A stretch of DNA of 13,792 nucleotides, taken from the IMG/VR virus record IMGVR_UViG_2711768009_000005; one strand, written 5' to 3'. Below, in pieces: positions 6,001 to 9,000 of the stretch; position 1 is the stretch's first letter; every line of letters starts with the position of its first letter. Position numbers: made by a program. Source of the DNA: a virus. Lineage: Duplodnaviria; Heunggongvirae; Uroviricota; Caudoviricetes.

Positions 6001-9000
6001 CCAGTCGGTGCCGGACGGCTTTGGCAGCACGGAGCCGCGCATCACCTGTAATGCCTGGCTGACCACACAGCGCAAGGCGTGGGATGTGCTCAGTGATTTC
6101 TGCTCGGCGATGCGCTGTATGCCGGTATGGAACGGGCAGACGCTGACGTTCGTGCAGGACCGACAGTCGGATAAGGTGTGGGCCTATAACCGCAGTAATG
6201 TGGTGATGCCGGATGATGGCGCGCCGTTCCGCTACAGTTTCAGCGCCCTGAAAGACCGCCATAATGCCGTTGAGGTGAACTGGATTGACCCGGATAACGG
6301 CTGGGAGACGGCGACAGAGCTTGTGGAGGATACGCAGGCCATTGTCCGTTACGGTCGTAACGTCACGAAGATGGATGCCTTTGGCTGTACCAGCCGGGGG
6401 CAGGCACACCGCGCCGGGCTGTGGCTGATTAAAACGGAACTGCTGGAGACGCAGACCGTGGATTTCAGCGTGGGTGCTGAAGGGCTTCGTCATGTACCGG
6501 GCGATGTCATTGAAATCTGCGATGATGACTATGCCGGTATCCGCACCGGCGGGCGCGTGCTGGCGGTGAACAGCCAGACCCGGACGCTGACGCTCGACCG
6601 TGAAATCACGCTGCCATCCTCCGGCACCACGCTGATAAGCCTGGTTGACGGGCAGGGGAATCCGGTCAGCGTGGAGGTCCAGTCCGTCACCGACGGCGTG
6701 AAGGTAAAAGTGAGCCGTGTTCCTGACGGTGTTGCTGAATACAGCGTGTGGGGGCTGAAGCTGCCGACGCTGCACCAGCGATTGTTCCGCTGCGTGAGTA
6801 TCCGTGAGAACGACGACGGCACGTATGCCATCACCGCCGTGCAGCATGTGCCGGAAAAAGAAGCCATCGTGGATAACGGGGCGCACTTTGACGGCGACCA
6901 GAGCGGCACGGTGAATGGTGTCACGCCGCCAGCGGTGCAGCACCTGACTGCCGAAGTCACCGCAGACAGCGGGGAATATCAGGTGCTGGCGCGCTGGGAC
7001 ACGCCGAAGGTGGTGAAGGGCGTGAGCTTCCTGCTCCGTCTGACCGTAACAGCGGATGACGGCAGTGAGCGGCTGGTCAGCACGGCCCGGACGACGGAAA
7101 CCACTTACCGCTTCACACAACTGGCGCTGGGGAACTACAGGCTGACAGTCCGGGCAGTAAATGCGTGGGGGCAGCAGGGCGATCCGGCGTCGGTATCGTT
7201 CCGGATTGCCGCACCGGCAGCGCTGTCGCGGATTGAGCTGACGCCGGGCTATTTTCAGATAACCGCCACGCCGCATCTTGCGGTTTATGATCCGACGGTA
7301 CAGTTTGAGTTCTGGTTCTCGGAAAAGCGGATTGCGGATATCAGGCAGGTTGAAACCACAGCACGCTATCTTGGCACGGCGCTGTACTGGATAGCCGCCA
7401 GTATCAATATCAAACCGGGCCATGATTATTACTTTTATATCCGCAGTGTGAACACCGTTGGCAAATCGGCATTCGTGGAGGCTGTTGGTCAGCCGAGTGA
7501 TGATGCATCCGGTTATCTGGATTTTTTCAAAGGCGAGATAGGGAAAACCCATCTGGCTCAGGAGCTGTGGACGCAGATTGATAACGGTCAGCTTGCGCCT
7601 GACCTGGCTGAAATCAGGACGTCCATTACGGATGTCAGCAATGAAATCACGCAGACCGTCAATAAGAAACTGGAAGACCAGAGTGCGGCAATTCAGCAGA
7701 TACAGAAGGTTCAGGTTGATACAAATAATAACCTGAACAGCATGTGGGCTGTGAAGCTGCAGCAGATGCAGGACGGACGCCTTTATATCGCGGGTATTGG
7801 TGCCGGTATTGAGAACACCCCTGACGGCATGCAGAGTCAGGTGCTGCTGGCGGCGGACAGGATTGCGATGGTTAATCCTGCGAATGGCAACACAAAACCG
7901 ATGTTTGTTGGTCAGGGCGATCAGATATTCATGAACGACGTGTTCCTGAAACGCCTGACGGCCCCCACCATTACCAGCGGTGGAAATCCATCGGCATTTT
8001 CCCTGACTCCGGACGGAAAGCTGACCGCTAAAAATGCGGATATCAGTGGCAGTGTGAATGCGAACGCCGGGACGCTCAACAATGTCACGGTAAATGAAAA
8101 CTGTACGATTAAGGGCATGCTGGAGGCGACTCAGGTCAGAGGTGACTTCGTTAAAGCTGTATCCAAATCATTTCCGAAACAGGCTGGTACGTGGGGTAAC
8201 ACGGAAACACCAAACGGGACGGTTACAGTCACCATAAGCGATGATCATAACTTTGACCGCCAGATTATTATTCCGCCCATTATTTTTAACGGTATAGCGT
8301 ATGACGATCCGGGGAGCGGAAATAACCCAGGAGGCACGCGATACACGGGTTATGGTTTTGAAGTTCGCAAAAACGGCGTATTAATCGCATCCAGAGAAAC
8401 TAAAGGGGCCATTCCCGGTAGTTACAGTGCAGTTATTGATATGCCTAGTGGTGGTGGTAGCGTCACTCTGGAGTTTAAGATTTTCCAGAAAGGCAATCAG
8501 GGGGCAGGCAATATCACCGACTGTACGGTGATTGTGACCAAAAAAGCGGCTTCCGGCATCAGTATTCGTTGAAATATTTATAACCCCAATAAATGGCGTC
8601 AGGAATGACGCCTTTTTTATTGCAGAAAAGCGAGAGGTAATTATGCGTAAAGTTTGTGCAGCCATTTTGTCCGCAGCCATTTGCCTGGCCGTATCCGGTG
8701 CGCCTGCATGGGCGTCTGAACATCAGTCCACGCTGAGCGCGGGGTATCTTCATGCCCGGACCAACGTTCCCGGCAGTGATGATCTGAACGGGATTAACGT
8801 GAAATACCGTTATGAGTTTACGGATACGCTGGGGCTGGTGACGTCATTCAGCTATGCAGGAGACAAGAATCGCCAGCTGACCCGTTACAGCGATACCCGC
8901 TGGCATGAAGATTCCGTTCGTAACCGCTGGTTCAGCGTAATGGCGGGGCCGTCTGTGCGCGTGAATGAATGGTTCAGCGCGTATGCGATGGCGGGTGTGG

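What the first reader, a model, noticed from the sequence alone, without database searches (positions are those of the whole stretch)
7540..8572. C-terminal third of J diverges from lambda and becomes A/T-richer: likely altered receptor specificity
J matches lambda gpJ closely up to about residue 820, then shows a substituted block (…[88 protein letters not shown]…), a conserved stretch ([48 protein letters not shown]), and a strongly diverged C-terminal domain (…[106 protein letters not shown]). In lambda this terminal domain binds LamB. The product is 1165 aa against 1132 aa for lambda J, and the last ~450 nt are noticeably lower in GC than upstream J. Together this suggests a mosaic receptor-binding domain that may recognise a different outer membrane receptor.
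Basis: partly seen in the sequence, partly recalled or inferred. Interest (0 to 1): 0.5.

Follow-up and report, generated by a model that had tools for sequence, protein, structure and literature searches.

The report
Phage-434-type receptor domain on tail-tip protein J
The tail-tip protein J of this lambda-like prophage carries the receptor-binding end of phage 434, which uses the porin OmpC, rather than lambda's LamB-binding end; this is a real but common and already documented module swap.

Summary
J (5075-8572, 1165 aa) is 97% identical to lambda J up to residue 818. It then has a substituted block (residues 819-948, 38% identity, with 21 + 7 extra residues), a conserved stretch (949-1009, 90%) and a diverged C-terminus (1010-1165, 36%). 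G+C falls from 0.59 to 0.48, and third-position G+C from 0.71 to 0.47.

The C-terminal 156 residues are 96% identical to J of phage 434, whose J directs infection through OmpC instead of LamB according to the literature. The low G+C is a property of this 434-type module.

The middle block is a separate module. It is a longer allele of the alpha-helical shaft and differs from both lambda and 434. It occurs with several receptor-domain types, so it is not a receptor determinant.

Both modules are very common. The shaft allele is in 3609 of 5426 complete E. coli genomes and the 434-type domain in 2113. Lambda's own domain is in only 98, all at least 99% identical to lambda. The identical J protein is encoded in the Shigella sonnei Ss046 chromosome.

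OmpC use by this particular protein is inferred, not tested. Novelty is low.

The parts
5075..8572 (+). Gene J, the tip attachment / central tail fibre protein, 1165 aa plus stop
   Evidence: ORF. Pfam shows the full gpJ architecture: FNIII-A_GpJ, Phage-tail_3, Ig_J, Ig_J_second, Phage_Tail_Tip, Ig_GpJ_C. It lies between gene I and lom in a lambda-order tail cluster.
5075..7528 (+). Conserved N-terminal part (hub domains and two FNIII/Ig domains), residues 1-818
   Evidence: 97% identical to lambda J and to 434 J; G+C 0.586, GC3 0.707.
7529..7918 (+). Block A, residues 819-948: alternative allele of the alpha-helical shaft (AHS) and upper central straight fibre
   Evidence: 38% identical to both lambda and 434 but 99% identical to phage ev099. 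It aligns to the lambda region that includes residues 841-861, the helix-to-sheet switch segment of the AHS. The DNA is found in 3609 of 5426 complete E. coli genomes.
7580..7672 (+). The extra residues relative to lambda and 434: 21 aa (7580-7642) and 7 aa (7652-7672), 28 in all
   Evidence: Indel list from the alignment. A strong 3-4 hydrophobic spacing runs across residues 832-867. The AlphaFold2 monomer puts residues 841-890 in one long helix, at low confidence.
7919..8101 (+). Conserved lower fibre stretch, residues 949-1009 ([19 protein letters not shown]...[11 protein letters not shown]...)
   Evidence: 87-90% identical to lambda, 434 and ev099. Many invariant columns across 38 J C-termini with different receptor domains. 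It is a plausible homologous crossover zone between shaft and receptor modules (inference).
8102..8569 (+). Phage-434-type receptor-binding region, residues 1010-1165 (Pfam Ig_GpJ_C covers residues 1029-1164, nt 8159-8566)
   Evidence: 149/156 identical to 434 J and 59/162 to lambda J. Pfam PF12421, E = 3e-25. In the AF2 model this part has pLDDT 74-92. The whole model's best Foldseek matches are the solved lambda and A8 gpJ central fibres, which include the RBD. G+C 0.479, GC3 0.468. The DNA is found in 2113 of 5426 E. coli genomes.
8595..8612 (+). Terminator-like hairpin followed by a T run, just after the J stop codon
   Evidence: Consensus scan. Phage 434 has a terminator annotated at the equivalent place between J and the Ail/Lom gene.
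8643..9125 (+). Context: Ail/Lom family outer-membrane protein gene, shortened to 160 aa
   Evidence: Pfam Ail_Lom, E = 1e-95, matching profile positions 1-159 of 199.
9218..12960 (+). Context: side tail fibre gene (9218-12379, interrupted by a masked N run) and tail fibre assembly gene (12379-12960)
   Evidence: ORFs; Caudo_TAP match; same gene order in lambda, 434 and ev099.

Best explanation
J is a three-module mosaic of a lambda-family tip attachment protein. Module 1 (residues 1-818: hub and FNIII domains) is the lambda/434 core that closes the tail tip. Module 2 (819-948) is an alternative, 28-residue-longer allele of the alpha-helical shaft and upper fibre. Module 3 (1010-1165) is the phage-434-type Ig-like receptor-binding domain. 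By analogy with lambda, the J trimer would insert the distal loops of this domain into a trimeric porin. Binding would spread the domains apart, twist the beta-prism fibre, flip the helical shaft and open the tail tip for DNA ejection. Because module 3 is 96% identical to 434 J, the porin is most likely OmpC rather than LamB. What is shown: the module boundaries, the identities, the domain family, the composition and the prevalence. What is inferred: OmpC as the receptor of this exact protein, the helical nature of the insertion, and the lambda-like trigger mechanism.
For: Segment identities to lambda, 434 and ev099. Nucleotide identity to 434 is 0.87-1.00 over the last 440 nt or so, against 0.37-0.60 to lambda. 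Phage 434 J confers OmpC use (PMC11101478 and PMC3509688). Lambda h434 imm21 is 434-like from J residue 712 onwards. Indels relative to lambda lie at lambda positions 1011, 1043, 1078, 1099 and 1109-1114, close to the indel hot spots 1012, 1049, 1077 and 1107 reported for natural J homologues (PMC6646904). Full Pfam gpJ architecture. Sequence match to solved lambda gpJ at E = 7e-95. Fold matches to 9wca, 8xck, 8xcj and 9wcb. Natural gpJ C-termini grafted onto lambda gpJ retarget particles to OmpC (PMC11338833). Long and short shaft alleles each occur with 434-type, A8-type and a third receptor-domain type.
Against: No adsorption data exist for this protein. It differs from 434 J at 7 residues within 1010-1165: S1032A, Q1036K, A1037V, N1047D, I1136V, Q1138H and G1143R. 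These cluster in two loop regions that align with lambda hot spots 1012 and 1107, where few changes suffice to add OmpF use in lambda. Fine specificity, for example which OmpC variants are used, could therefore differ. Different natural OmpC-binding gpJ ends do discriminate between OmpC variants. The AF2 model is a monomer of a trimeric fibre, with mean pLDDT 53.6, so the shaft geometry is weakly supported. The h434 hybrid also carries 434 lom and stf, so that hybrid alone does not isolate the J end as the determinant.
Confidence: 0.8

Rival explanations
1. The receptor-binding domain is 434-like in sequence but uses a different porin (for example OmpF or LamB) or only a subset of OmpC variants, because its few differences from 434 sit in the specificity loops.
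For: All 7 substitutions relative to 434 within residues 1010-1165 lie at 1032-1047 and 1136-1143. These are also among the most variable columns within the 434-type clade and align with lambda hot spots 1012 and 1107, which control gain of OmpF use. The gpJ ends A8 and 1A2 differ in which of 23 OmpC variants they accept.
Against: Identity to 434 is 96%. Every one of these residues is shared with other natural 434-type sequences; only S973, which lies outside the domain, is unique among 22 sequences. No evidence points to a switch to another protein.
Confidence: 0.12
2. The region is a relic. The prophage is defective, J is no longer expressed in a virion, and the mosaic says nothing about a current receptor.
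For: The identical protein sits in the S. sonnei Ss046 chromosome and related assemblies, next to IS1 and other IS fragments. The window ends in what I recognise from memory as an IS1 terminal sequence. The lom gene is shortened to 160 aa.
Against: J, the assembly genes, the tape-measure gene and the head genes are called as full-length ORFs in several loci. J has no frameshift or stop. Even in a defective prophage the module identity and its origin are unchanged. Induction was not tested.
Confidence: 0.35
3. The lower G+C of the 3' end is only a by-product of amino-acid composition or normal within-gene drift, not a sign of a separate evolutionary history.
For: G+C already declines from about nt 7300, before the protein diverges, and lambda J also declines there.
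Against: The drop is strongest at third codon positions (0.71 to 0.47), which are least constrained by the protein. Lambda's own domain keeps GC3 at 0.62, while 434's shows the same low value of 0.48. The domain assorts independently of the rest of J.
Confidence: 0.1

Closest known systems
Phage 434 J (central tail fibre, UMO75286.1; the h434 host-range allele)
   Same: Residues 1-818 are 97% identical and the receptor-binding region 1010-1165 is 96% identical, with the same indel pattern relative to lambda and the same low G+C. The literature assigns OmpC as its receptor.
   Different: 434 has the short, lambda-type helical shaft. This J has the allele that is 28 residues longer (38% identity over 819-948). 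There are 7 substitutions in two loop regions of the domain.
Lambda gpJ (NP_040600.1; PDB 8IYK, 8XCK, 8XCJ)
   Same: Same gene position, same Pfam architecture and 97% identity over residues 1-818. The solved structure provides the domain scheme (hub, two FNIII, AHS, CSF, RBD) and the trigger mechanism.
   Different: The receptor domain is 36% identical, with five indels in loop regions. Lambda binds LamB. Lambda's domain occurs in only 98 of 5426 E. coli genomes, all at 99% identity or more, with laboratory strains (DE3 derivatives and similar) among the top listed.
J of phages ev099, cdtI, Ayreon, phi458, mEp332, PhiR34_1 and others
   Same: Identical three-module architecture (long shaft plus 434-type domain), 95.4-96.4% nucleotide identity over the whole gene, and also 1165 aa.
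   Different: Only scattered substitutions. No receptor assignment for these phages was found in the literature searches made here.
A8 gpJ chimera (PDB 9WCA closed state; 9WCB bound to OmpC of E. coli EDL933)
   Same: Also an OmpC-binding gpJ end. It is the best structural match (E = 9.5e-24) and the best sequence match in the PDB (E = 9e-105). It shows that gpJ ends are portable host-range modules.
   Different: It is a different receptor-domain lineage: 53% identity over the Foldseek-aligned region, with a short shaft in the solved construct.
OmpC-dependent J proteins of phi330 and Gifsy-1
   Same: Lambda-like central fibres shown experimentally to need OmpC.
   Different: Their receptor domains are only distantly related. 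The phi330, 434 and lambda domains share 35-40% pairwise identity, and the Gifsy-1 C-terminus is 18% identical to lambda's.

Membership tests
Lambda-type tip attachment protein J (gpJ) | Domain architecture: hub domains, two FNIII/Ig domains, tail-tip fibre and C-terminal Ig-like receptor domain | tested here: met
   Pfam hits PF24801, PF13550, PF24421, PF24489, PF09327 and PF12421, all above their curated cut-offs.
Lambda-type tip attachment protein J (gpJ) | Position in the tail gene cluster: after M, L, K, I and before lom, stf, tfa | tested here: met
   ORF order in the window and Pfam matches of the neighbours; same order in lambda, 434 and ev099.
Lambda-type tip attachment protein J (gpJ) | Homology to experimentally solved gpJ | tested here: met
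   Residues 801-1165 match 8iyk_J at E = 7e-95 and 8xcj_Z at E = 3e-96. Residues 1-818 are 97% identical to lambda J.
Lambda-type tip attachment protein J (gpJ) | Trimeric assembly at the tail tip | not testable with these tools
   Only a monomer could be modelled.
Phage-434-type (h434) receptor-binding module | High identity to the C-terminal domain of 434 J and the same indel pattern relative to lambda | tested here: met
   149/156 identical with no indels against 434; five indels against lambda, shared with 434.
Phage-434-type (h434) receptor-binding module | Ig-like gpJ C-terminal fold | tested here: met
   In the AF2 model residues 1029-1159 have pLDDT 74-92. Top Foldseek hits for the whole 376-residue model are 9wca_F, 8xck_F, 8xcj_F and 9wcb_F, with E from 1e-23 to 1e-14.
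Phage-434-type (h434) receptor-binding module | Infection depends on OmpC and not on LamB | not testable with these tools
   Known for 434 and lambda h434 from the literature. No experiment exists for this protein.
Long alpha-helical-shaft allele (ev099 / cdtI / Ayreon type) | Block 819-948 with 28 extra residues before the switch segment | tested here: met
   129/130 identical to ev099. 572 E. coli records match the DNA at 99% identity or more.
Long alpha-helical-shaft allele (ev099 / cdtI / Ayreon type) | The insertion extends a trimeric helical bundle | tested here: inconclusive
   A heptad-like pattern runs across residues 832-867. AF2 predicts a helix over 841-890 but with pLDDT of only about 50-63, in a monomer model.

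The most novel reading that the evidence does not exclude
The longer helical-shaft allele (28 extra residues, about four heptads, placed immediately before the segment that switches from helix to sheet when lambda binds its receptor) may not be a neutral variant. It could be a functional tuning module that changes the stand-off distance or the triggering threshold of the tail tip, for example on hosts with O-antigen.
Probability: 0.2. Interest if true: 0.4.

Novelty: already known. Interest (0 to 1): 0.15.

Why it matters
The result lets the prophage's likely receptor (OmpC) be read from sequence, which helps predict host range and superinfection in Shigella and E. coli. It also shows that lambda's LamB-binding end is the rare form among natural J genes, while 434-type ends are common. 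It adds no new principle. Modular exchange of the J specificity region, the 434/OmpC case and engineered gpJ end swaps are all published.

Tried and rejected
1. I looked for the window's exact source by an exact-match scan of species-representative genomes, using a 59-mer from the divergent patch near 2990. There were no hits.

2. A relative search with the receptor domain in the same collection found only two Escherichia representatives and one 1.35-kb contig in a Collinsella MAG, which is probably mis-binned.

3. I tried to find out whether the published '1A2' gpJ end is the 434 type by searching the Nature paper's supplements for DNA and peptide words. The sequences are not held as text.

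4. I searched the literature for receptor assignments of phages with the same architecture (Ayreon, cdtI, ev099, phi458, mEp332). None was found.

5. I considered whether other features hide in 7540-8572. Rfam found nothing there. Promoter-like sites were no more frequent than in shuffled sequence, and the minus-strand ORFs (65 aa and 99 aa) have no support.

6. I considered that block A might be part of the receptor determinant. I rejected this because it pairs with at least three receptor-domain types and differs equally from lambda and 434, which use different receptors while sharing one shaft allele.

Full report
**What is there**

The window is the tail end of a lambda-like prophage. It holds the 3' part of the tape-measure gene, then M, L, K, I, J (5075-8572), a shortened lom, a side tail fibre gene and a fibre assembly gene. 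Three runs of N (519-975, 1627-2152, 10301-10623) are masked sequence and explain the apparent G+C troughs outside J. J is an uninterrupted ORF of 1165 aa. It has the complete Pfam architecture of lambda gpJ: FNIII-A_GpJ, Phage-tail_3, Ig_J, Ig_J_second, Phage_Tail_Tip and Ig_GpJ_C.

**Check of the observation**

I aligned J with lambda J (1132 aa), phage 434 J (1137 aa) and phage ev099 J (1165 aa). Identity to lambda is as follows.

| Residues | Identity to lambda J | Note |
|---|---|---|
| 1-818 | 792/818 (97%) | |
| 819-948 | 49/130 (38%) | 21- and 7-residue insertions at lambda positions 835 and 838 |
| 949-1009 | 55/61 (90%) | |
| 1010-1165 | 59/162 (36%) | |

Composition also behaves as described.

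| Segment | G+C | GC3 |
|---|---|---|
| Residues 1-818 | 0.586 | 0.707 |
| Middle block (819-948) | 0.518 | 0.615 |
| Conserved stretch (949-1009) | 0.519 | 0.623 |
| Last 156 codons (1010-1165) | 0.479 | 0.468 |

The last 471 nt lie below every 471-nt window of the N-terminal 2454 nt, whose minimum is 0.550. Two refinements apply. The decline begins near nt 7300, before the protein diverges, and lambda J shares that part of the decline. What is specific is the extra drop over the last 470 nt or so. Lambda's own domain has G+C 0.552 and GC3 0.623, while 434's last 471 nt have 0.482 and 0.478, the same as here.

**What the C-terminal domain is**

Residues 1010-1165 are 149/156 identical to phage 434 J, with no indels. 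At the DNA level the last 440 nt or so are 87-100% identical to 434 and 37-60% identical to lambda. Two papers state that replacing lambda J with the 434 fibre gene makes the phage bind OmpC, the receptor of 434, and that the C-terminus of gpJ sets host specificity (PMC11101478 and PMC3509688). The sequenced hybrid lambda h434 imm21 is lambda-like up to J residue 706 and 434-like from residue 712 onwards. This is consistent with the host-range allele lying in the 3' part of J, although that hybrid also carries 434 lom and stf.

The indels that separate this domain from lambda's fall at lambda positions 1011, 1043, 1078, 1099 and 1109-1114. These lie next to the four indel hot spots (1012, 1049, 1077, 1107) reported for 1207 natural J homologues (PMC6646904).

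An AlphaFold2 monomer model of residues 790-1165 has a low overall confidence (mean pLDDT 53.6), but the domain itself scores 74-92. The model's best Foldseek matches are the solved central fibres of lambda (8XCK, 8XCJ) and of the OmpC-binding A8 gpJ chimera (9WCA, and 9WCB bound to OmpC). The best-supported reading is therefore a 434-type, OmpC-directed receptor-binding domain. OmpC use by this exact protein is an inference.

**Fine differences from 434**

Seven substitutions separate residues 1010-1165 from 434 J. Four lie at 1032-1047 and three at 1136-1143. Among 22 sequences of the 434 type, variation is concentrated at 1032-1047, 1077-1089 and 1125-1143. These are the parts that align with lambda's specificity hot spots. 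All residues of this J at those sites also occur in other natural sequences. Only S973, which lies outside the domain, is unique.

Natural OmpC-binding gpJ ends differ in which of 23 OmpC variants they accept (PMC11338833). These loop differences may therefore tune OmpC-variant range. This is not testable here.

**What the middle block is**

Residues 819-948 are 38% identical to both lambda and 434, and 99% identical to ev099. In lambda this stretch holds the alpha-helical shaft below the FNIII domains and the top of the beta-prism fibre. Lambda residues 841-861 are the helices that turn into beta-sheet when LamB binds. The 28 extra residues sit immediately before the equivalent of that segment. 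They show a 3-4 hydrophobic spacing, and the model places residues 841-890 in one long helix, at low confidence.

This block is not a receptor determinant. Lambda and 434 share one shaft allele yet use different receptors. In a set of J C-terminal fragments, both long and short shaft alleles occur with 434-type, A8-type and a third receptor-domain type. The near-invariant stretch 949-1009 lies between the two variable modules and is a plausible crossover zone (inference).

**How common it is**

Counts of complete E. coli genomes (out of 5426) that hold each DNA segment:

| DNA segment | Genomes |
|---|---|
| Long shaft allele | 3609 |
| Lambda-type shaft allele | 2650 |
| 434-type receptor domain | 2113 |
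| Lambda LamB-type domain | 98 (all at least 99% identical; laboratory strains among the top listed) |

Sequenced phages with the same three-module J include ev099, phi458, Kati, PhiR34_1, cdtI, Ayreon and mEp332, at 95.4-96.4% nucleotide identity over the whole gene.

The identical J protein is encoded in many assemblies. These include CP000038.1, which I recognise as the Shigella sonnei Ss046 chromosome (the tool output gives only the accession). The window is 99-100% identical to those loci, with three differing bases in J that leave the protein unchanged.

Among species-representative genomes, close relatives of the domain appear only in Escherichia, apart from one short contig in a Collinsella MAG that is probably mis-binned.

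**Verdict**

The only aspect I did not find discussed is the longer shaft allele, its position next to the conformational switch and its majority status. That is a modest lead, not a discovery. Whether the prophage is still active is open, given the IS1 at the window end, the other IS fragments nearby and the shortened lom.

Noticed in passing
window 519-975, 1627-2152, 10301-10623: Three runs of N (457, 526 and 323 bases) inside the tape-measure and side tail fibre genes. They are masked sequence and cause the false low-G+C troughs in composition profiles.
   Followed up: yes
window 8643-9125: The Ail/Lom family gene downstream of J encodes only 160 aa and matches profile positions 1-159 of 199. 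It therefore lacks the C-terminal strands, probably through a premature stop. The same 160-aa product is called in the S. sonnei loci.
   Followed up: partly
window about 13709-13792; L004:18619-19316: The window ends in a sequence I recognise from memory as an IS1 terminal inverted repeat. In the matching S. sonnei loci an IS1 transposase (InsA/InsB domains) follows at once. Then come further IS fragments and a phage integrase on the opposite strand next to host genes, an arrangement unlike an intact lambda prophage end.
   Followed up: partly
window 12722-12920 (+): Rfam match to IS009 (RF02111, 218 bits against a gathering score of 117), lying inside the tail fibre assembly gene.
   Followed up: no
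window 2911-3250: 57 of the 66 differences between the window and the S. sonnei Ss046 locus over 2153-10300 cluster here, at the end of gene M and the start of gene L, and most of the alignment's 19 gap openings presumably fall here too. This looks like a small recombination patch in an otherwise near-identical prophage.
   Followed up: partly
window 12961-13700: An A+T-rich stretch (G+C about 0.32-0.38) between the fibre assembly gene and IS1, containing only two short ORFs (48 and 52 aa).
   Followed up: no
window 8135-8224 versus 8225-8480: There is micro-mosaicism inside the receptor module. Segment 8135-8224 is 99% identical to ev099 but 87% to 434. Segment 8225-8480 is 99% identical to 434 but 90-92% to ev099.
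   Followed up: partly
window 7991 (codon 973): Ser973 in the conserved fibre stretch is Pro in all 21 other 434-type sequences compared. It is a singleton substitution of unknown effect.
   Followed up: no
L011 (JAGZNZ010000056.1, 1350 bp): A contig binned into a Collinsella MAG encodes a 99% identical 434-type J end. This is almost certainly an Escherichia phage fragment that was mis-binned.
   Followed up: no
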